A stretch of 42,054 bases of DNA from a virus (lineage: Duplodnaviria; Heunggongvirae; Uroviricota; Caudoviricetes): positions 1 through 42,054 of IMG/VR virus record IMGVR_UViG_2609459819_000001, one strand, 5' to 3'. Shown piece by piece: positions 23,980 through 40,141 of this stretch (within the stretch, counting starts at the first letter, position 1; every line of letters begins with the position of its first letter). The notes below the pieces were generated by a model. The model ran no database searches. It was not told where the DNA came from and saw only the letters and a list, made by a program, of their open reading frames with translations. The position numbers were made by a program, and so were the translations under genes.

Positions 23980-24129
23980 ATGAGTGAATCAAACAAACCA
24001 TCTGGAGAAAATAAGCCTCAACCCGCACCACAGCCTAAACCGGCTCCACAGCCAGCCGAAAGAAATCTGAGGACAGGTTATACCTTTGTTGCCGATTCTG
24101 CTGAAAACATCAGAAAAAAAGGTAAGTAA
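23980..24129 (+). CDS. 49-aa Pro-rich small ORF (MSESNKPSGENKPQPAPQPKPAPQPAERNL...)
   Basis: Manually translated; GGAGA 5 nt upstream of ATG; convergent with and overlapping 20 nt of the 189-aa membrane protein gene. Confidence 0.2.
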   Translation: MSESNKPSGENKPQPAPQPKPAPQPAERNLRTGYTFVADSAENIRKKGK

Positions 24130-28818: not shown

Positions 28819-29295
28819 TCAGCTAAAATCAATACGCTCATGATTCATTCTGTCATGTACACATGGCTCACCGTCTTTCGGCTCAGGCCATTTGCGCTGT
28901 TTGTTAATCGCCAACTTCTCTACCATCGCTTGGGTAATCTGTTCATCACTGATACCGGCACGACGTTGCGCATCCCATAACAGGAATTGCATGTCAGCCC
29001 ATTCGGTAAGGTCACTTGGTTCAGCTGCCGCCTCGAGCGCTTCTTTGGAAAGGTGCTTCAGCGGACCAACTGGACCGACATCGCCGAAAGTAGCCTGTGA
29101 CCATGTAGCATGCTCACGGCGTACTTGCTCACGGGCCATCGACTCCAGAACTCCATCAATCACCTTCACAGCATCAGCCATTGCGTAGCCGAGATTACCG
29201 CCGTCGCTTTGTGCTGCTGCGTTGCTGAGTATTTCGCGTATCTGGTGCAGGCGATCGAGTGATACATGACCGTGCGCCGGGTGGTTAGTTGTCAT
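28819..29295 (-). CDS. DUF550-like protein (possible dATP/dGTP pyrophosphohydrolase domain)
   Basis: 158-aa ORF; family assignment from memory of similar prophage proteins, not verified. Confidence 0.35.
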   Translation of the reverse strand: MTTNHPAHGHVSLDRLHQIREILSNAAAQSDGGNLGYAMADAVKVIDGVLESMAREQVRREHATWSQATFGDVGPVGPLKHLSKEALEAAAEPSDLTEWADMQFLLWDAQRRAGISDEQITQAMVEKLAINKQRKWPEPKDGEPCVHDRMNHERIDFS

Positions 29296-29298
29296 GGG

Positions 29299-29502
29299 TT
29301 AGTCCGTCCAGTAAGTAAGTTCTTCCGCCAGGCGGTCATCTGCTTCGGCTTGGTTAGGGATATCAGCATCGGTTTCTATGCTGGCTCCGGCAAAATCACG
29401 AGCACAAGCTTTGCGGTGTTTACGATTGCCCATGTCCCATTCTGGATTTTTAAGCTCTTTGTTCCATGCCCGTAGCATGAGTTTCATTGGTGACTTTGAC
29501 AT
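29299..29502 (-). CDS. Hypothetical 67-aa protein
   Basis: ORF in tightly packed early-right operon. Confidence 0.3.
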   Translation of the reverse strand: MSKSPMKLMLRAWNKELKNPEWDMGNRKHRKACARDFAGASIETDADIPNQAEADDRLAEELTYWTD

Positions 29503-29503
29503 C

Positions 29504-30049
29504 TCATTCCCCCTTCACGCCAATGCCAGCGGCGCGGTCAATGCGTTCAATTTCTGCCAGAATAAGAGCGCCAGCTTTTACCAAGTCGCAGCGTGCTCCT
29601 GATTGCTTCCACCAATCAGGCGACCACGGCCAATGTGCTGGAGTGGAGAAACCTTGGTTGTGCGCATGAATTGCGTAACAAGCCGCTGCATCTGCTAATT
29701 CGCTATTTTGATATGCGTTGTCATGTTCAGGAGTCCATCCTTCAACCGACTGTTGCCGCTGACGTTCGGCTACCACATCCAGAATTGCTGGATTGAATGA
29801 ACGCGCCTCCAGTTCTGCTATGCGCTTCTCTGCGGCTTCCAGCTCATCCAGCAGCGCCAGCACGGTGGCGGGGTTGGCTGCGGCGATAAATGCAGCATCA
29901 CGCGCTTCGTTTTCACTGAATACCATGGCTATTTGCTCATGGTTCACGCCGTCAGTGGAGTAAATCTCATCGTCGAACTCAACAGCCCACCGGCCTTTCG
30001 TCGCCTTCTCCGCTGCTTCCCGTAATCCACGTTTGTCGATGTTGCTCAT
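29504..30049 (-). CDS. Ead/Ea22-like protein
   Basis: NPATVLALLDELEAAEKRIAELEAR motif recalled from Ead/Ea22-like prophage proteins. Confidence 0.4.
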   Translation of the reverse strand: MSNIDKRGLREAAEKATKGRWAVEFDDEIYSTDGVNHEQIAMVFSENEARDAAFIAAANPATVLALLDELEAAEKRIAELEARSFNPAILDVVAERQRQQSVEGWTPEHDNAYQNSELADAAACYAIHAHNQGFSTPAHWPWSPDWWKQSGARCDLVKAGALILAEIERIDRAAGIGVKGE

Positions 30050-30243
30050 TGGGCGGCCTCCTCCATGGCTGGGTCTGCTGGTAAAGTCATGTGCGGCACT
30101 TCAATCAGTTCTGCCCGAGCATCAGCCGTGTTAAGCGCCATTAATGCGACGATCCGCTTCTGCTCAGCATCCATTCGTAACGCTACTGTCTTGCCGTTCA
30201 TATTGAAGAACACCGCAACGTTTTTGATATCTTCGATTTTCAT
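30046..30243 (-). CDS. Hypothetical 65-aa protein
   Basis: Start at internal ATG 30243 (ATGA overlap with ren stop); GGGAGGG upstream. Confidence 0.3.
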   Translation of the reverse strand: MKIEDIKNVAVFFNMNGKTVALRMDAEQKRIVALMALNTADARAELIEVPHMTLPADPAMEEAAQ

Positions 30244-30584
30244 ACCCCTACCCTCCCCCAAACCATCAATACCCTTCTCATCGCCGCGCTGTTGCGGCAC
30301 TCCTGGCAGATCACGTTTGTGTCCGTCCGCTGAATTAACTTCGACTTACCCTGCTTCATGCCAGGTATCGTGTCAGGGGCGAAGCGCATTCCGTAGCTGG
30401 TCAGGCTGTAAAGGCGCTGGCCGTATTTTCCTTCGCAGCGGATCAGGCCGTCTGCCAGCAGCGTGCTCACCGTTCCGGATATCTTTTTGGTGTCCATGCC
30501 GATAAGCCCTGCCAGTTTGGCGTTGTTCAACCCTGGGTTGTTGCGCAGGGCTGCCAGCACCTGCTCACGGATTGTTATGTTCAT
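30240..30584 (-). CDS. ren: Ren-like protein
   Basis: C-terminus CQECRNSAAMRRVLMVWG resembles lambda Ren (ECRQSAAMKRVLAVYG) as recalled; located directly after P. Confidence 0.7.
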   Translation of the reverse strand: MNITIREQVLAALRNNPGLNNAKLAGLIGMDTKKISGTVSTLLADGLIRCEGKYGQRLYSLTSYGMRFAPDTIPGMKQGKSKLIQRTDTNVICQECRNSAAMRRVLMVWGRVGV

Positions 30585-30585
30585 G

Positions 30586-31275
30586 TCACACCATCCCGTT
30601 CGACTTGTTGCGGTTGTACTTGGCCAGCAGCAGCTGGATCGGCGTCGGCCCTTGCTCGGCAGCTGGTGCGGCAATAGCCCGGCGTACCGGCGGCACTGGC
30701 TTACCCTCGGTGACGCGCCTTTCCCACATGTCCAGCAGATCGCCTGCCTCGCGTGCCAGTTCACCATGCGTTAACTGGCGCTCGGTGCTGCGGTGGCGCA
30801 ATTCTACGCAAATGTGGTACATGACCGGCTGCGACCATGGAAATTGCTCGCTGGAGATGAATTCGAACGAGCGGTTACGCCAGTCCCAGTATTCGGCGAT
30901 CACCTGGTCAACGTTGACGCCCAGCGCGCCGCTGCTCTGCTTGCACCAGGCGACGAACTGGCCCGGCGACGGCAGGAATGGGCGCTCCTGGCGGCGGGCA
31001 ATGCGCATGCCGGCATCGACCTGAGCCATGGTGTGGATCCCGTTCTCCTGAAACGCCAGCAGCCACTGACGGCGGAATTCGTTCAGGTCTTCCTGGGTGC
31101 GGAAGTTCGCCATGCTGGCCGGGAACGCGGCGCGCAGCTCGTTGAACAGCTTGTTGAATACCTGCGCCACCTGCTCGACCGGCGCGCACTCCTGGTACTG
31201 CTCTGGCAGGTTATGGGCCATGCGGCTCATCTGCTCGCGGTCGCGGTTACGCATCTGCTCTGCAAGAGATTTCAT
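30586..31275 (-). CDS. P: Replication protein P (DnaB helicase loader), lambda P family
   Basis: MKSLAEQMRNRDREQM...FPAS..RRQWLLAFQENGI..RPFLPSPGQFVAWC closely parallels lambda P as recalled. Confidence 0.85.
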   Translation of the reverse strand: MKSLAEQMRNRDREQMSRMAHNLPEQYQECAPVEQVAQVFNKLFNELRAAFPASMANFRTQEDLNEFRRQWLLAFQENGIHTMAQVDAGMRIARRQERPFLPSPGQFVAWCKQSSGALGVNVDQVIAEYWDWRNRSFEFISSEQFPWSQPVMYHICVELRHRSTERQLTHGELAREAGDLLDMWERRVTEGKPVPPVRRAIAAPAAEQGPTPIQLLLAKYNRNKSNGMV

Positions 31276-32180
31276 CGGATCACCCCATAGGCCCAGTCAG
31301 TGTTGTTGAAGTCCAGATCTGGCTTGACAGCGCGCTGCTCACCTCCGGCGTTACGCTGCATTGTCAGCTTGTCCCACTGCTTACGCAGGCTTTCGGGACT
31401 CAGGATGTTGGTCTGCCAGAAGTGGTGTTTGCTAGCCCAGTCATACAGCGCGCAGATGTCCTGGTGCGACCGGTTGTCTATCTGGCGCATCAGGCGAACA
31501 GTGTTAGACCAGGAGGTCATGTCCGGGGCTTTGCAGGTTGGGTTAATCAGCTTCACCCTGGAGGAAATCCACTTAGCTGTCTCGAGGTCTTCAGCAGAGC
31601 CCCACTTCGCACCGGATGGTGTGTAGACCGCAGCTTCAGGATGAGTTGATAAAAATTTCTTCAGACGTGCGTCAGAGGATTCGTCAGAATTCTCTGACGA
31701 AGATCTTTTAATACTGTTCTTGTTCTTGTATTGGGTGTCTACCGTTTTCGGGAAGGTTATTCCTGATTTCGGGAAGGATTTTCCCGTTTTCGGGAATTTT
31801 CTTCCCGTTTCCGGTTTGTCTAAAATCCATGCTGAAAGGTCAGTGTTTACACCGACGATTTTCATCATGCCCTGCTTCTGTGAAAAGATGATTTTGCGTT
31901 CTGCGAGAGACTTAAGCGCGTCCGATACATGCGTATCGCTCAGGCCCGTAAGCTCGGCAATAACCGTATTTGTCACGCGGTCCTGTTTCTTGTTCCAGCC
32001 GTAGGTAAGCCAGATCACCGCCTCAAAACATTGCCATTCCCGGCCTGACAGTCTCAGGCGAGGCTTAAGCTGTTGGATCTCGTTAGCGACCTTGGTATAC
32101 CCGTTCGACAGGTCGGCCATACGACCTCCCGGTTGTTCGGTTTTATTTGGGAAATTGATTATTTCAGCGGTGTTTGACAT
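31272..32180 (-). CDS. O: Replication initiator O (lambda O family, N-terminal iteron-binding domain)
   Basis: Start MSNTAEIINFP (lambda O: MTNTAKILNF); contains iteron-encoded FPKTGKSFPKSGITFPKT linker. Confidence 0.8.
   Translation of the reverse strand: MSNTAEIINFPNKTEQPGGRMADLSNGYTKVANEIQQLKPRLRLSGREWQCFEAVIWLTYGWNKKQDRVTNTVIAELTGLSDTHVSDALKSLAERKIIFSQKQGMMKIVGVNTDLSAWILDKPETGRKFPKTGKSFPKSGITFPKTVDTQYKNKNSIKRSSSENSDESSDARLKKFLSTHPEAAVYTPSGAKWGSAEDLETAKWISSRVKLINPTCKAPDMTSWSNTVRLMRQIDNRSHQDICALYDWASKHHFWQTNILSPESLRKQWDKLTMQRNAGGEQRAVKPDLDFNNTDWAYGVIR
31740..31816. repeat. Origin iterons: four direct repeats (core TTTTCGGGAA) at 21-bp spacing, adjacent AT-rich segment
   Basis: Cores at 31745, 31766/7, 31787, 31807; each part of a TTCCCG..CGGGAA inverted repeat; inside the O gene as in lambda ori. 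Confidence 0.6.
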
Positions 32181-32189
32181 ACTGTTCTC

Positions 32190-32257
32190 CGCAATTACGC
32201 CCTGTTTTTGCACCTGAAAGCCGTTGGTGTTCGAGCACCGCGGCTTTCGCCATTTTT
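32190..32257 (+). ncRNA. oop-like antisense small RNA (predicted, about 70 nt)
   Basis: Plus-strand promoter TTGATT(32155-60)-17 nt-CATACT(32178-83) and plus-strand terminator GAAAGCCG..CGGCTTTC + TTTTT (32216-32257); antisense to the O start / cII-position gene 3' end. Confidence 0.35.
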
Positions 32258-32264
32258 GAACCGG

Positions 32265-32804
32265 TCATATAACCCCCAGCATAATCTGCACCATTTCCAT
32301 CAACGGACCGGTTAACCCAGGGTCAACGCGATACATCTCCACGATCCCCTCGCTCAACTCTTTCAGCTTCTGATGACGTGGCGCATCCATTGCGACAGCA
32401 ATCTTCGCTTCGCTGGTTTCCTTCCCCAGCCTTGCCAGACGAGCCATTACGTTGTCTTCTGGTAGCAGACGATTGCGGTATTCAATCGGCAGGACAGCGA
32501 GGATTGCCGGCGTCAGCTGGCGAACGTTTTCGCGGTACCGTTCGCTGTTGAAATGGTTATCCAGAAAGCGGAAAAGCTTCTGACGCTGTCGGCTGAGGTC
32601 ATCAGGGAAAGTGATCTCGTCTCCCCCTTGAGCCTGGTACTCTTCGATGATCAGAGCAGAAACGACATCCTGACCATCTACACCCGCCCACGCACGAACG
32701 GCATCGCGGATCTGGTCATGTTTATCTACCGAGACAGGTTGATTGCGATTTATCATCGCAGCCGTTTGATATCCGCTATTTTGATGAAGTGATAGTGACT
32801 GCAT
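32265..32804 (-). CDS. cII-position regulatory protein (YdaT-like?)
   Basis: 179-aa ORF directly downstream of cro-like gene; YdaT-like assignment by position (Rac ydaS-ydaT arrangement), low certainty. Confidence 0.35.
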   Translation of the reverse strand: MQSLSLHQNSGYQTAAMINRNQPVSVDKHDQIRDAVRAWAGVDGQDVVSALIIEEYQAQGGDEITFPDDLSRQRQKLFRFLDNHFNSERYRENVRQLTPAILAVLPIEYRNRLLPEDNVMARLARLGKETSEAKIAVAMDAPRHQKLKELSEGIVEMYRVDPGLTGPLMEMVQIMLGVI

Positions 32805-32806
32805 GG

Positions 32807-33040
32807 TTATGCCCTCGCTTCCTGAGCCGGTAATCCATCCGTAGGGTTGAGGTACAAATCAGGGCGTAACTCATGTGGAGTTACACCTGTAGCATTGAAA
32901 ATAGGAATGACACGGTTAGCCGGTACGAATCCATTGTCACGGTGACGCCAGTGACTGACCGTCATTGGGGATACATTGAGCTTTTCTGCTAAACGGGTTG
33001 CACCCCCTACGATGCATATTGCTTTATCAAGTGCTTTCAT
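32807..33040 (-). CDS. cro: Cro-like HTH regulator (YdaS/Cro family)
   Basis: 77 aa from internal ATG 33040 (MKALDKAICIVGGATRLAEKLNVSPMTVSHW...); GGAG 6 nt upstream; divergent from the repressor gene. Confidence 0.55.
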   Translation of the reverse strand: MKALDKAICIVGGATRLAEKLNVSPMTVSHWRHRDNGFVPANRVIPIFNATGVTPHELRPDLYLNPTDGLPAQEARA

Positions 33041-33067
33041 ATTTGGCTCCAAGTAATAACGAACCAA

Positions 33068-33096
33068 ATTAAACATTATGTTTATGTTCAAGTCAA
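33068..33096 (-). promoter_or_regulatory. pR-like promoter (TTGACT-17 nt-TTTAAT)
   Basis: -35 at 33096..33091, -10 at 33073..33068 on minus strand; operator palindrome in the spacer. Confidence 0.5.
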
Positions 33097-33111
33097 CATT
33101 ATGAATGTTGA
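33070..33111. promoter_or_regulatory. OR-like operators: palindromes TAAACATTATGTTTA (33070-33084) and TCAACATTATGAATGTTGA (33093-33111)
   Basis: Two perfect palindromes sharing AACATTATG in the 103-bp cro/repressor intergenic region, overlapping the pR -10/-35. Confidence 0.5.
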
Positions 33112-33135
33112 GGCGATAAACTTTTAGTTTAGAAT
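33108..33135 (+). promoter_or_regulatory. pRM-like promoter for the repressor (TTGAGG-16 nt-TAGAAT), near-leaderless transcript
   Basis: -10 ends 8 nt before the repressor ATG (33144); no SD present. Confidence 0.35.
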
Positions 33136-33143
33136 CTTGATAT

Positions 33144-33539
33144 ATGAGAAAAAACACACACCAAACAGATAACCCGCAGGTTCGGCGGTTAAATGAAATC
33201 ATCGAGAAGAAGCGCATATCCAAAGCGGATATAGCGAGAATCTGTGGTGTGAGCGCACAATCAGTCAACAACTGGTTTGTCAGAGGAGCGATAGGAAAAA
33301 GCTCAGCAATAAAACTTGCCGATGCGCTAGGCGTAAGTCTTGAGTGGGTTCTAGGTCAGGACGTGGATGCTAAGAACGGTTTGAGACACGACGAACGGAG
33401 ACTGTTGGAACTCTATAATCAACTCCCAAACGAAGAAGAACAACAGAACATGTTGCGGATCGTATCTCTACGGTTGAAAGAACTCGATGAACTGTACGCC
33501 AAGTACATGGGACGGCGGATTAAGGGCGATGCCGAGTAA
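33144..33539 (+). CDS. Phage repressor, HTH XRE family (cI-like but without peptidase S24 domain)
   Basis: 131-aa ORF divergent from cro; HTH-like region ISKADIARICGVSAQSVNNW; no Ala-Gly / Ser-Lys autocleavage region visible. Confidence 0.6.
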   Translation: MRKNTHQTDNPQVRRLNEIIEKKRISKADIARICGVSAQSVNNWFVRGAIGKSSAIKLADALGVSLEWVLGQDVDAKNGLRHDERRLLELYNQLPNEEEQQNMLRIVSLRLKELDELYAKYMGRRIKGDAE

Positions 33540-33584
33540 CGAGCCGCTGGTGCCCAGGAAGCATGGGTAGACAGGGATAAAATC

Positions 33585-33683
33585 ATGAGAATTGGTATAG
33601 TGTTTCCGATCTTGGTGTTCATCGTAGCTATGGGGTTTATGGCATGGTTTATCATCGATGGATACGCAACACCCAGCGGCTAA
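33585..33683 (+). CDS. 32-aa hydrophobic peptide (MRIGIVFPILVFIVAMGFMAWFIIDGYATPSG)
   Basis: Manually translated; AGGGA 7 nt upstream; single TM helix; immediately downstream of repressor. Confidence 0.25.
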   Translation: MRIGIVFPILVFIVAMGFMAWFIIDGYATPSG

Positions 33684-33795
33684 TTCGCAGTTCCACCGGT
33701 TGATAGCTTATAACAAATTATAGTAGTTGAAGGTGAAACAGATCGGGTATCTTCTGATATAACAATGAAACATTTTGTCTATAGATAGCATAGCT

Positions 33796-33816
33796 TGCAA
33801 CTAGATTTCAGTTGCA
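33796..33816. promoter_or_regulatory. Inverted repeat TGCAACT-N7-AGTTGCA upstream of hicA (candidate HicB operator)
   Basis: Perfect 7-bp arms, about 28 nt upstream of hicA start. Confidence 0.3.
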
Positions 33817-33843
33817 CTACCTTTAACAGAGGATGTATCCTTC

Positions 33844-34098
33844 GTGGGAAGAAAGGAAAAGCTAAAGTCAAAGTTAGACGGCTTACCCAAAAATTTTACT
33901 TGGGATGAGTTCGTTACTCTCATGAACCAGTATGGCTTCAAGCTTTTGAATGCTAAACGAGGTTCTGGTCGTAAATTTTACAACCAACGTGTTGATAGAT
34001 TGGTCATTTTTCATGAGCCTCATCCTGAAAACACCCTCAAAAGGTACGTCTTGGAAGAAGTTAAACAGCTGTTAGATGAGATTGATGATCATGAATAA
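33844..34098 (+). CDS. hicA: HicA-family toxin (YcfA-like mRNA interferase)
   Basis: 84-aa ORF with GF..L...KRGSGRKF...FHEPHP pattern resembling HicA; directly upstream of a HicB-like gene; GTG start. Confidence 0.5.
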   Translation: MGRKEKLKSKLDGLPKNFTWDEFVTLMNQYGFKLLNAKRGSGRKFYNQRVDRLVIFHEPHPENTLKRYVLEEVKQLLDEIDDHE

Positions 34099-34102
34099 CT
34101 TG

Positions 34103-34549
34103 ATGAAATACAAAGGTTACTATGGTAGCTCCAGCATTTCATTTGAAGATGGGGTGATGCATGGAAAACTCGAATGTATAAATGATCTCGTCACTTATGA
34201 GGGTGCAACGGTTGCAGAACTCCGTGCAGCCTTTGAGGAGGCCGTGGACGATTACCTCTCCACTTGTGAAGAGATAGGAAAATCTCCAGATAAGACAATG
34301 AGTGGTTCGTTTAACATCCGGATAGGTGAATCCCTGCATAAAAAAGCATATTTAGCTGCTAAAGCTAAGAATATGACTTTAAACGATTATGTAAAACAGG
34401 CTGTCAGTGAGTCAGTTAATGGGAAAAAAGAGGTTCACTACCACTTTGAAAAACCGAGGGATGTTAGAGAAGTTACTTTCTTCTCATCCCGTAGACGTAC
34501 AGAAGAGACCTATTGGGAAGTTTCAGTAGACAACGGAGTGCCACATTGA
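34103..34549 (+). CDS. hicB: HicB-family antitoxin (HicB fold + C-terminal RHH-like region)
   Basis: MKYKGYYGSSSISFEDGVMHGKLECINDLVTYEGATVAELRAAFEEAVDDYLSTCEEIGKSP...FNIRIGESLHKKA matches the HicB pattern. Confidence 0.65.
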   Translation: MKYKGYYGSSSISFEDGVMHGKLECINDLVTYEGATVAELRAAFEEAVDDYLSTCEEIGKSPDKTMSGSFNIRIGESLHKKAYLAAKAKNMTLNDYVKQAVSESVNGKKEVHYHFEKPRDVREVTFFSSRRRTEETYWEVSVDNGVPH

Positions 34550-34974
34550 TGCTTGATAAAATTCGCTTTAAGGGATTTGATCTCGAGGGTTCTTCCCTTT
34601 TTATCGACGACAGTGATAATTCTGAAGGCGGAAAATATAGCTTAAAATTTTCTGAGCATCACGTTGTTCCTCAAAAAGATGAAGATGGAAATTGGCTCTT
34701 TATTGAAGTTAAGCCATCGATAACTGGTTTCCCTCGCGATAAAAAAGATTTTGATGATGGTGAGGATGTATTGTTCAAGGCAGAGGCTACCTTGACACTA
34801 ACATTTGAGTGTGACCTCGATGAAGAAGTAACTGAGGATTTTTATAATGAAAATGCTTGGTTTTTTGAAAATTATGTATATGTATGTACAAAAACAGTTT
34901 TTGAAAATATGTTCAAAAACACAGTGTTAGATACTATAACGTTACCTTGGTCCCCAACATCATCTAGAAAATAA
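34549..34974 (+). CDS. Acidic hypothetical protein (141 aa) co-oriented with hicAB
   Basis: ATG overlaps hicB stop (TGATG); about 30 Asp/Glu vs about 14 Lys/Arg; AT-rich DNA; followed by terminator. Confidence 0.4.
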   Translation: MLDKIRFKGFDLEGSSLFIDDSDNSEGGKYSLKFSEHHVVPQKDEDGNWLFIEVKPSITGFPRDKKDFDDGEDVLFKAEATLTLTFECDLDEEVTEDFYNENAWFFENYVYVCTKTVFENMFKNTVLDTITLPWSPTSSRK

Positions 34975-34981
34975 TCTCCAA

Positions 34982-35009
34982 CCCGGCCACCGCGCCGGGG
35001 TTTCTTTTG
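34982..35009 (+). terminator. Intrinsic terminator ending the repressor/hicAB transcription unit
   Basis: CCCGGC-caccgc-GCCGGG stem followed by TTTCTTTTG. Confidence 0.5.
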
Positions 35010-39028: not shown

Positions 39029-40141
39029 ATGGAAAACACGAATATCGTAACCGCTGAACAGCAGACTCCAAACACGATCTCAGCCAGCAATGCCATTTTC
39101 AACGTGCAGGCTTTAACCCAGCTTCAGTCTGTCGCCGGGTTGATGGCACAGGCAGCCGTAACGGTGCCTGAGCACCTCCGCGGCAATCCGGCAGACTGCA
39201 TGGCCATCATCATGCAGGCGATGCAGTGGGGTATGAACCCTTACGCCGTGGCGCAAAAGACGCACCTGGTTAACGGTGTCCTGGGATACGAAGCGCAACT
39301 GGTTAATGCGGTGATCTCCAGCTCAAACGCCATCGTTGGCCGCTTTCACTATGAGTACGAGGGCGACTGGTCGAAATGTGCCAGCAGCCGCGAGATAACC
39401 GTTAAAAAGCCTGCGAAAGGTGGCGGGACGTACGACAAGAAAGAAATGGTACGCGGTTGGGAAAGTGCTGATGAACAAGGACTGTCGGTACGGGTAGGTG
39501 CCGTTATTCGCGGTGAAAGTGATATCACCTGGGGAGAGCCTGTTTTCCTCTCCAGCGTAATCACACGTAATTCTCCACTTTGGGTATCAAACCCGAAACA
39601 GCAGATCGCTTATCTGGCACTCAAATACTGGGCGCGCCTATATTGCCCTGCAGTTGTTCTTGGTGTGTACACCCCTGATGAGATTGAACAGCGCACAGAA
39701 AAAGAGATCAACCCAACGCCGCAACGCGTTAGCCTGGCTGATATCTCAGGTGACACCGTCACAACCACGCAAAGCGCACAGGAATCGTCGGTAAATGTCG
39801 ACTCTCTTGCCGATGATTTCCGCGAACGCATCGAATCTGCTCAGGACGTGGATAGCGCCAAATCGCTGCGTGCCGACATTGAAACGGCGAAAGCTACGCT
39901 GGGATCCGCACTATTCACCGAGCTGAAAAACAAAGCCGTAAAGCGTTATTACCTAGTGGATGCACGCAACAAGGTTGAGGAGGCTATTAAATCCCTGCCC
40001 CAGCCCGACGAGCCGCATGCAGCCGAACGGTTCGCTGAAGCCGAGCGCATGCTTGCATCTTCAAAGCGTCACTTAGGCGATGAACTGCACGATCAATTCA
40101 GCATCACCCTGGCGGATATGAAACCGGAATACGTGGCCTGA
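39029..40141 (+). CDS. recT: RecT/Bet-family single-strand annealing protein
   Basis: AIIMQAMQWGMNPYAVAQKTHLV and NPKQQIAYLALKYWARLYCP parallel lambda Bet/RecT motifs; start ambiguous among three consecutive ATGs (39023/39026/39029). Confidence 0.6.
   Translation: MENTNIVTAEQQTPNTISASNAIFNVQALTQLQSVAGLMAQAAVTVPEHLRGNPADCMAIIMQAMQWGMNPYAVAQKTHLVNGVLGYEAQLVNAVISSSNAIVGRFHYEYEGDWSKCASSREITVKKPAKGGGTYDKKEMVRGWESADEQGLSVRVGAVIRGESDITWGEPVFLSSVITRNSPLWVSNPKQQIAYLALKYWARLYCPAVVLGVYTPDEIEQRTEKEINPTPQRVSLADISGDTVTTTQSAQESSVNVDSLADDFRERIESAQDVDSAKSLRADIETAKATLGSALFTELKNKAVKRYYLVDARNKVEEAIKSLPQPDEPHAAERFAEAERMLASSKRHLGDELHDQFSITLADMKPEYVA

What the first reader, a model, noticed from the sequence alone, without database searches (positions are those of the whole stretch)
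31740..31816. Replication origin iterons embedded in the O gene
Four 21-bp-spaced direct repeats with core TTTTCGGGAA, each part of a TTCCCG..CGGGAA inverted repeat, are followed on the transcribed side by an AT-richer segment. The iterons are translated as the FPKTGKSFPKSGITFPK linker of O. This locates ori and the O-binding sequence.
Basis: partly seen in the sequence, partly recalled or inferred. Interest (0 to 1): 0.35.

Follow-up and report, generated by a model that had tools for sequence, protein, structure and literature searches.

The report
Phage phi80-type replication origin
This is the already-described replication origin of a phi80-like lambdoid phage: four initiator-binding repeats and an easily melted AT-rich stretch lying inside the initiator's own gene.

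Summary
The repeats are real. The period-21 array at 31742-31814 is the best tandem repeat in the 42-kb window. TTTCGGGAA occurs three times at exact 21-bp spacing, which happened in 0 of 300 resamples.

The array lies in the middle of a 302-aa O-type initiator gene (31272-32180, minus strand), which is followed by a lambda-P-type helicase-loader gene. The gene is 99.7% identical to phage phi80 gene 15. The 211-bp origin segment matches phi80 and mEp237 at 210 of 211 positions. The four "gp15" binding sites annotated in the phi80 genome record (JX871397) map exactly onto 31740-31816.

Reading in the direction of O transcription, the array is followed by the most AT-rich stretch of the gene (31699-31732, 26% GC) and then a palindrome shared with lambda.

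In 26 O genes from prophages of other species, picked by N-domain peptides rather than by iterons, synonymous-site diversity falls from about 0.39-0.40 in the flanking domains to 0.02-0.11 across 31671-31820. The DNA itself is therefore under selection.

One side observation may be new: initiator residue 87 (Asp/Glu versus Asn) tracks iteron base 3/14 (C:G versus A:T).

The parts
31272..32180 (-). O-type replication initiator gene (phi80 gene 15 homologue, 302 aa from the ATG at 32180). The ORF lister's GTG start at 32213 is an upstream extension.
   Evidence: ORF. Pfam Phage_rep_O, E 6e-25, over the N-terminal domain. 99.7% identical to phi80 gene 15 and mEp237 O. 39% identical to lambda O over the full length.
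31802..31817 (-). Iteron 1, the one farthest from the AT-rich tract. O-sense AAACCG-GAAA-CGGGAA. The outer arm is degenerate but conserved in that form.
   Evidence: Maps to the phi80 gp15 site at L001 3031-3045. The outer arm is AAACCG in most of the 28 arrays, and its CCG core is present in at least 92% of them.
31781..31796 (-). Iteron 2, a perfect inverted repeat TTCCCG-AAAA-CGGGAA.
   Evidence: This exact 16-mer sits at the same place inside an O-like gene in 81 of 119 viral contigs that carry it.
31760..31775 (-). Iteron 3, O-sense TTCCCG-AAAT-CAGGAA.
31739..31754 (-). Iteron 4, next to the AT-rich tract. O-sense TTCCCG-AAAA-CGGTAG.
   Evidence: The right arm is CGGTAG in nearly all of the 28 arrays; T at position 14 and G at position 16 each occur in 96%.
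31699..31738 (.). AT-rich tract, the presumed DNA-unwinding element.
   Evidence: Lowest GC in the gene, 26.5% over 34 bp. Synonymous diversity 0.023 against 0.39 in the N-terminal domain, p 2e-7. Lambda's AT-rich tract sits at the homologous position.
31663..31706 (.). Origin palindrome: imperfect 20-nt arms with a perfect 9-nt core, TTCGTCAGA/TCTGACGAA, at 31680-31688 and 31693-31701.
   Evidence: pairs I2 and I10. Homologous to the lambda sequence TTCGTCAGAGAATTCTGGCGAATCCTCTGAC. Synonymous diversity 0.11.
31671..31820 (.). Whole stretch under DNA-level purifying selection (codons 121-170 of O). This is the functional extent of the origin as seen by evolution.
   Evidence: Third-position diversity profile along the gene in two independent samples.
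30586..31275 (-). Lambda-P-type helicase-loader gene (phi80 gene 14 homologue). Its start overlaps the O stop codon.
   Evidence: Pfam Phage_lambda_P, E 5e-50. Annotated as gene 14 or P in phi80 and mEp237.

Best explanation
This is the origin of replication of a phi80-type lambdoid phage or prophage, lying inside the gene of its own initiator.

Shown here by sequence:
- There are four 16-bp sites with dyad symmetry. Their consensus is TT(C/a)CCG-(A/g)AA(A/t)-CGG(G/t)AA.
- They repeat every 21 bp, which is two helical turns and also seven codons.
- In the direction of O transcription they are followed by an AT-rich tract and then a palindrome.

Inferred from the lambda paradigm:
- Dimers of the initiator bind each site through the N-terminal winged-helix domain.
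- They assemble into a bent nucleoprotein complex (the O-some) on supercoiled DNA and melt the adjacent AT-rich tract.
- The C-terminal domain recruits the P-type protein (gene 14 homologue) carrying host DnaB helicase.
- Host chaperones release the helicase, and transcription from pR through the region activates firing.

The peptide encoded by the iterons (KPETGRKFPKTGKSFPKSGITFPKT) is a tolerant inter-domain linker. Its sequence is dictated by the DNA sites rather than the reverse.
For: Identity to phi80:
- The O gene is 99.7% identical to phi80 gene 15, mEp237 O and HK225 O.
- The 211-bp origin segment matches phi80 and mEp237 at 210 of 211 positions.
- The four annotated gp15 binding sites of JX871397 fall exactly on 31740-54, 31760-75, 31781-96 and 31802-16.

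Gene context:
- Phage_rep_O followed by Phage_lambda_P, downstream of cro-like and cII-like genes and a divergent repressor.

Anatomy matching lambda:
- Lambda has four annotated iterons in O at 39034-39118.
- The AT-rich tract lies at the homologous position.
- The palindrome segment is conserved between the two.

Statistics:
- The array is far beyond chance.

Evolution:
- In 26 O genes (the window's and 25 from prophage loci of other Enterobacterales species), found through N-domain peptides outside the iterons, third-codon-position diversity is 0.391 in the N domain and 0.404 in the C domain.
- It is 0.055 in the iterons (p 3e-11), 0.023 in the AT-rich tract and 0.110 in the palindrome.
- A second sample from viral contigs shows the same trough.
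- The half-site cores CCG/CGG and the central AA are nearly invariant, while the 5-nt spacers vary.
- The N domain (79-99% identical) travels with the iteron type, while the C domain varies from 12 to 54%. This fits N-domain/iteron specificity.

Literature:
- Lambda-type origins lie in the middle of O and consist of iterons plus an AT-rich tract. O dimers bind the inverted repeats and open the AT-rich region (PMC7466680; PMC5043065).
Against: - Nothing here is biochemical. Binding of the initiator and origin firing were not tested.
- I could not read a paper showing gp15 footprints on phi80 DNA. The GenBank 'protein_bind' features may themselves rest on analogy with lambda.
- The older phi80 record X13065 carries no origin feature.
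- The outer arms of iterons 1 and 4 are degenerate.
- The AT-rich tract (26% GC) is less extreme than lambda's (21% GC).
- A single-sequence structure model was too poor (mean pLDDT 38) to confirm the winged-helix fold or linker disorder.
- No solved structure of an O homologue exists.
Confidence: 0.94

Rival explanations
1. The repeats exist only because the protein needs a repetitive FPK(T/S)G linker. The DNA has no cis-acting role.
For: The array is in frame, its unit is exactly 7 codons, and the peptide is repetitive.
Against: - Selection on the protein alone would leave synonymous sites free. Instead, third-position diversity falls from about 0.39-0.40 in the flanking domains to 0.055 in the iterons (p 3e-11). 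Codons stay fixed as TTC CCG ... ACG GGA.
- The constraint continues through the non-repetitive AT-rich tract and the palindrome.
- In the Morganella and Photobacterium relatives the peptide changes (FPKTG to LPETV or LPKSV) while the dyad symmetry of the DNA is kept.
Confidence: 0.02
2. The sites do bind the initiator, but chiefly for control (autoregulation, titration or silencing of replication, or a transcription roadblock), and replication starts elsewhere in the phage.
For: - In lambda, iteron-bearing plasmids can silence replication of incoming phages (PMC3349717).
- The palindrome followed by a T-run scores as terminator-like on the antisense strand.
Against: - The full origin grammar is present and co-conserved: iterons, adjacent AT-rich tract, palindrome.
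- It is the homologous position of the mapped lambda origin.
- No other comparable repeat array lies in the replication module.
Confidence: 0.03
3. The origin sequence is intact, but this copy belongs to a defective prophage and never fires.
For: I did not check the completeness of the element outside the early region. 121 of 5426 complete E. coli genomes carry this origin as a chromosomal prophage, and DH5alpha is among them.
Against: - The O gene (302 aa) and P gene (229 aa) are full length.
- The origin is intact.
- The right half of the window is collinear with the viable phage mEp237 over 59% of its length at 97% identity.
- This possibility concerns the state of the element, not the nature of the feature.
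Confidence: 0.05

Closest known systems
Replication origin of phage phi80, inside gene 15 (GenBank JX871397 and NC_021190; also phages mEp237 and HK225)
   Same: Essentially the same sequence. It matches at 210 of 211 bp across iterons, AT-rich tract and palindrome. The four annotated gp15 sites coincide with the finding. The O and P homologues are the same.
   Different: There is one synonymous base, A at 31686 where phi80 and mEp237 have C. It makes the 9-nt palindrome arms perfect, as in lambda. The flanking immunity region and the oop-like RNA are not those of phi80.
Phage lambda origin (ori-lambda: iterons ITN1-4, 40-bp AT-rich region and palindrome inside gene O)
   Same: - Same position in the initiator gene between its two domains.
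- Four dyad-symmetric sites, then an AT-rich tract, then a homologous palindrome.
- A P-type loader gene follows.
- Same proposed mechanism (PMC5043065, PMC7466680).
   Different: - Lambda's iteron sequence is TCCCTC-AAAAC-GAGGGA, in 18-bp sites, against TTCCCG-AAAA-CGGGAA in 16-bp sites here.
- Lambda's spacing is 20, 24 and 23 bp, against a uniform 21 bp here.
- The O proteins are only 39% identical, so the initiators should not cross-recognise.
Origins of Shiga-toxin phages (933W, P27)
   Same: A lambda-type origin inside O. The number of iterons varies by whole units (PMC7466680), as seen here in relatives with 3 or 5 units.
   Different: These phages have six lambda-type iterons and a different iteron sequence family.
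Iteron-controlled plasmid origins (P1, F, R6K, pSC101, RK2)
   Same: Arrays of initiator sites phased with the DNA helix, next to an AT-rich unwinding element (PMC5043065).
   Different: - Plasmid iterons are direct repeats bound by Rep monomers and lie outside the rep gene.
- Here the sites are inverted repeats, presumably bound by dimers, and are embedded in the coding sequence.

Membership tests
Lambdoid-phage origin inside the O gene (ori-lambda type) | Lies within an O-family initiator gene, between the N-terminal DNA-binding domain and the C-terminal domain | tested here: met
   The Phage_rep_O domain covers aa 31-129 of the 313-aa ORF, which is aa 20-118 of the 302-aa protein. The iterons encode aa 122-147.
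Lambdoid-phage origin inside the O gene (ori-lambda type) | Array of about four 16-19 bp sites with dyad symmetry, spaced about two helical turns apart | tested here: met
   Four sites at exact 21-bp spacing. 0 of 300 resamples gave such an array.
Lambdoid-phage origin inside the O gene (ori-lambda type) | AT-rich tract immediately after the last iteron in the direction of O transcription | tested here: met
   31699-31732 has 26.5% GC, the minimum of the gene and within the lowest 0.9% of the window.
Lambdoid-phage origin inside the O gene (ori-lambda type) | Palindrome beyond the AT-rich tract, homologous among lambdoid phages | tested here: met
   Inverted repeats I2 and I10. The alignment with lambda is nearly identical over about 35 nt.
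Lambdoid-phage origin inside the O gene (ori-lambda type) | Helicase-loader gene (P type) directly downstream in the same operon, after cro and cII | tested here: met
   Phage_lambda_P at 30586-31275. Cro-like, cII-like and repressor genes lie upstream.
Lambdoid-phage origin inside the O gene (ori-lambda type) | DNA-level (cis) constraint on the sites, independent of the encoded protein | tested here: met
   Synonymous diversity 0.055, 0.023 and 0.110 (iterons, AT-rich tract, palindrome) against 0.39-0.40 in the flanking domains. Replicated.
Lambdoid-phage origin inside the O gene (ori-lambda type) | Initiator binds the iterons and unwinds the AT-rich tract; the fragment supports O/P-dependent replication | not testable with these tools
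   Needs EMSA or footprinting and a plasmid replication assay.
phi80 origin specifically | Sequence identity with the phi80 gene 15 origin segment, and coincidence with its annotated gp15 sites | tested here: met
   210 of 211 positions identical. Site coordinates map one to one.
Iteron-plasmid Rep origins | Direct repeats bound by monomeric Rep, located outside the rep coding sequence | tested here: not met
   Each site is an inverted repeat, and the array lies inside the initiator gene. The description of plasmid iterons comes from PMC5043065.

The most novel reading that the evidence does not exclude
A single residue of the presumed recognition helix, position 87 of the initiator, may read iteron base 3/14.

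- All 81 loci whose O-like gene aligns to the window's N domain across residue 87 and that carry TTCCCG..CGGGAA iterons have Asp87.
- A 41%-identical relative (L011) with the same iteron, and lambda (TCCCTC..GAGGGA), have Glu.
- Every relative with TTACCG..CGGTAA iterons has Asn87: Morganella L149, Photobacterium L151, viral contigs L158/L160/L232/L266, and the 42%-identical L269.

If this is real, it identifies a base-contacting residue and a natural specificity switch in a family of initiators that has no solved structure. This goes beyond the finding itself, which is already known.
Probability: 0.35. Interest if true: 0.3.

Novelty: already known. Interest (0 to 1): 0.1.

Why it matters
For annotation, it fixes where replication of this prophage or phage starts, and which initiator/iteron specificity class it belongs to. 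That class is phi80 type, and it is not interchangeable with lambda type.

It is not a discovery. The phi80 origin was sequenced decades ago, and its sites are annotated in GenBank.

The comparative results add modest value:
- a clean demonstration that a coding stretch is constrained at the DNA level;
- a refined consensus, CCG-N4-CGG core with variable 5-nt spacers;
- natural variants with 3 and 5 iterons;
- a candidate residue/base specificity pair that could guide mutagenesis of O-type initiators.

Tried and rejected
- **Rfam scan of 29000-35000.** It found no described RNA family, so the oop-like element is not recognised by Rfam.
- **PDB sequence search with O.** It gave only a marginal hit (E 0.009) to a metal-dependent regulator's HTH region. 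No O homologue has a solved structure.
- **Single-sequence AlphaFold model of O.** Mean pLDDT was 38 and pTM 0.27, too poor to use. Its secondary-structure pattern (helices 71-78 and 82-94, strands 98-110, no structure in 111-168) is compatible with a winged helix plus linker, but I do not count it as evidence.
- **Attempts to read the phi80/Lula genome paper.** Look-ups by DOI and by a guessed PMC id both failed. Full-text searches found no accessible paper describing gp15-iteron biochemistry.
- **First viral-contig sample.** It was ascertained on the iteron-2 16-mer and accidentally included two unrelated ORFs (L038, L083). I therefore repeated the constraint test on a sample chosen by N-domain peptides, with the same result.
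- **Reading the repeats as a purely protein-level repeat.** Rejected on synonymous-site conservation.
- **Reading the repeats as plasmid-type iterons.** Rejected because the sites are inverted repeats lying inside the gene.

Full report
**1. Observation**

On the + strand, 31739-31817 reads CTACCGTTTTCGGGAA-ggtta-TTCCTGATTTCGGGAA-ggatt-TTCCCGTTTTCGGGAA-ttttc-TTCCCGTTTCCGGTTT.

- The repeat finder reports three 31-nt copies at 21/21 spacing, plus nested inverted repeats.
- Tandem Repeats Finder reports period 21, 3.5 copies and score 90 at 31742-31814. This is the top-scoring array in the 42-kb window.
- The 9-mer TTTCGGGAA occurs exactly four times in the window on both strands. Three of them are at 31746, 31767 and 31788.
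- This is the only equal-spaced triple of any 9-mer in the window. None arose in 300 first-order Markov resamples.

- The fourth copy of the quoted core (31808) is degenerate, matching 6 of 10.
- Only 31781-31796 is a perfect TTCCCG-N4-CGGGAA dyad.
- The quoted peptide (aa 129-145, encoded by 31746-31796) covers three of the four sites. The fourth site encodes KPETGR.

**2. Context**

The array lies in a minus-strand ORF. Counted from the ATG at 32180, it encodes 302 aa.

- Its N-terminal part matches Pfam Phage_rep_O (E 6e-25).
- The next gene, 30586-31275, matches Phage_lambda_P (E 5e-50).
- Upstream lie a YdaT-type cII-like gene, a YdaS/Cro-like gene and a divergent HTH repressor. This is the classical repressor | cro-cII-O-P layout.

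**3. Identity**

- The O gene is 99.7% identical to phi80 gene 15 (X13065, JX871397) and to the O genes of phages mEp237 and HK225.
- The phi80 genome record annotates four protein_bind features with bound moiety gp15. They convert to window coordinates 31740-54, 31760-75, 31781-96 and 31802-16, which is exactly the span of the finding.
- Over 211 bp of origin the window differs from phi80 and mEp237 at one synonymous base. That base is 31686, A rather than C (Ser codon TCA versus TCC). It makes the 9-nt palindrome arms perfect and is the lambda-like state.
- The same origin is present in 121 of 5426 complete E. coli genomes, including DH5alpha.
- The right half of the window is a mosaic. It is closest to mEp237, with 59% coverage at 97% identity.

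**4. Anatomy compared with lambda**

- Lambda's record annotates four iterons inside O at 39034-39118, with spacings of 20, 24 and 23 bp.
- Aligning the two origins puts the iteron arrays, the AT-rich tracts and the palindrome in register. The palindrome segment (TTCGTCAGAGAATTCTG.CGAATCCTCTGAC) is nearly identical.
- The window's AT-rich tract is the GC minimum of the gene: 26.5% over 34 bp at 31699-31732, within the lowest 0.9% of the window. Lambda's minimum (20.6%) is at the homologous place.
- The O proteins are 39% identical over their full length.

**5. Evidence from relatives**

I used two samples.

*Sample 1.* This was a scan of viral contigs for the iteron-2 16-mer.

- It returned 119 loci.
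- In 81 of them the match sits about 383 nt into an O-like gene.
- 49 distinct origin variants align without trouble.
- Half-sites are conserved and spacers vary.
- One variant has five units (L069, +21 bp) and one has three (L112, -21 bp).

*Sample 2.* This sample avoids ascertainment on the iterons.

- I searched one genome per species using peptide words from the N domain (YGWNKKQ, MADLSNGY).
- The search gave 27 prophage loci, one per species, in Enterobacter, Citrobacter, Klebsiella, Kluyvera, Pantoea, Pectobacterium, Morganella, Xenorhabdus, Photobacterium and others.
- All keep a four-unit, 21-bp array.

Among codons that keep the majority amino acid, third-position nucleotide diversity in sample 2 (26 full-length genes including the window's) is as follows.

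| Region | Third-position diversity | Mann-Whitney p against the N domain |
|---|---|---|
| N domain | 0.391 | - |
| C domain | 0.404 | - |
| Iterons | 0.055 | 3e-11 |
| AT-rich tract | 0.023 | 2e-7 |
| Palindrome | 0.110 | not computed |

- Sample 1 gives the same trough even with iteron 2 excluded.
- The trough spans codons 121-170, which is 31671-31820.
- The DNA is thus constrained in its own right, which rules out a purely protein-level repeat.
- The pooled consensus is TT(C/a)CCG-(A/g)AA(A/t)-CGG(G/t)AA followed by a variable 5-nt spacer.
- In nearly every array the outer arm of iteron 1 is AAACCG and the outer arm of iteron 4 is CGGTAG.
- The N domain stays 79-99% identical while the C domain drops to 12-54%. 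This is the expected signature of an N-domain/iteron specificity unit joined to exchangeable loader-binding domains.

**6. Mechanism**

Shown here:

- the site grammar;
- its identity with phi80;
- its DNA-level conservation;
- its linkage to the N domain.

Inferred from the lambda literature (PMC5043065; PMC7466680):

- Initiator dimers bind the dyad sites.
- The complex bends supercoiled DNA and opens the AT-rich tract.
- The C-terminal domain recruits the P-type protein with DnaB.
- Chaperones free the helicase.

The 21-bp period places all four sites on one face of the helix. A-tracts at the site centres and in some spacers fall roughly every 10-11 bp, which would favour intrinsic bending. 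This last point is my inference and was not computed.

From my own knowledge, not verifiable in the library: the comparative sequencing of lambdoid origins including phi80 is in Grosschedl & Hobom 1979 and Moore et al. 1979. Both are cited in PMC5043065. Cis-acting lambda ori mutations are in-frame deletions that leave O active in trans.

**7. Limits**

- There is no biochemistry here.
- The GenBank gp15 sites may be annotated by analogy. The older record X13065 has no origin feature.
- No O homologue has a solved structure.
- The single-sequence model was unusable.

**8. Side observation**

In Morganella (L149) and Photobacterium (L151), all the iterons that fit the dyad read TTACCG..CGGTAA.

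- Both arms change symmetrically, and the change is shared across the array.
- The encoded peptide becomes LPETV or LPKSV.
- Asp87, in the predicted recognition helix, becomes Asn. This change is unique among the 26 genes compared.

A scan for the variant iteron found four more viral contigs with an 86-88% identical N domain. All have Asn87. It also found a 42%-identical relative (L269) with Asn87.

Conversely, the 81 loci whose O-like gene aligns to the window's N domain across residue 87 and that carry the CCC/GGG iteron all have Asp87. The 41%-identical L011, which has the same iteron, has Glu. Lambda also has Glu. L011 and L269 are 54% identical to each other.

This suggests a residue-base contact: an acidic residue with C:G, and Asn with A:T. 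The events are few, there is no phylogenetic correction, and some Asp87 arrays tolerate a TTACCG arm in a single iteron.

**9. Verdict**

The feature is the known phi80-type origin. Interest is low.

Noticed in passing
window 31920-31922 (codon 87 of O) and iteron positions 3/14; loci L149, L151, L158, L160, L232, L266, L269, L011: Initiator residue 87, in the predicted recognition helix, is Asp or Glu wherever the iterons read TTCCCG..CGGGAA (or lambda's CCC/GGG type). It is Asn wherever they read TTACCG..CGGTAA. This holds in a close lineage and in a distant (~42% identical) one. It is a candidate specificity-determining contact.
   Followed up: partly
L069 and L112 (viral contigs), aligned to window 31739-31817: Natural variants of the same origin carry five iterons (one 21-bp unit duplicated) or three (one unit lost), always in frame.
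   Followed up: partly
window 31686: This is the only difference from phi80 and mEp237 in 211 bp of origin. It is a synonymous A (phi80 has C) that makes the palindrome arms TTCGTCAGA/TCTGACGAA perfect, as in lambda. All the E. coli genome hits listed (the eight best of 121) are 99.5% identical over the 211-nt query, i.e. about one mismatch, whose position I did not check.
   Followed up: yes
window 32215-32257, + strand (between O and the cII-like gene): A strong hairpin followed by a T-run, antisense to the cII-O transcript. The 76-nt stretch 32185-32260 that contains it folds at -26.9 kcal/mol, z -3.9. It sits where phi80 has its M3 (oop-like) RNA, but the sequence differs from phi80's. There is no Rfam match, and the simple terminator scan missed it.
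   Followed up: partly
window 33844-34098 and 34076-34549, + strand: A HicA-toxin/HicB-antitoxin gene pair lies just beyond the repressor gene in the immunity region (Pfam).
   Followed up: partly
window 32265-32804 and 32807-33271, minus strand: The genes in the cII and cro positions match Pfam YdaT_toxin and YdaS_toxin, which are Rac-prophage-type regulators. They are not the lambda CII and Cro families.
   Followed up: no
window 31670-31709, + strand: The origin palindrome plus the following T-run scores as an intrinsic-terminator-like site for transcription antisense to O. This may be incidental.
   Followed up: no
L125-L150 (prophage loci in other species): The O N-terminal domain is 79-99% identical across genera, while the C-terminal domain is only 12-54% identical. 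The junction is at the origin, so the origin marks a recombination boundary between modules.
   Followed up: partly
window 13850-13904 and 24014-24053: Two other short tandem arrays: period 21 with 2.6 copies, and period 18 with 2.2 copies.
   Followed up: no
window 30240-30767, minus strand: An ORF downstream of P has a winged-helix (HTH_24/MarR-like) match. It occupies the position where mEp237 has ren and phi80 has an N15 gp45-like gene.
   Followed up: no
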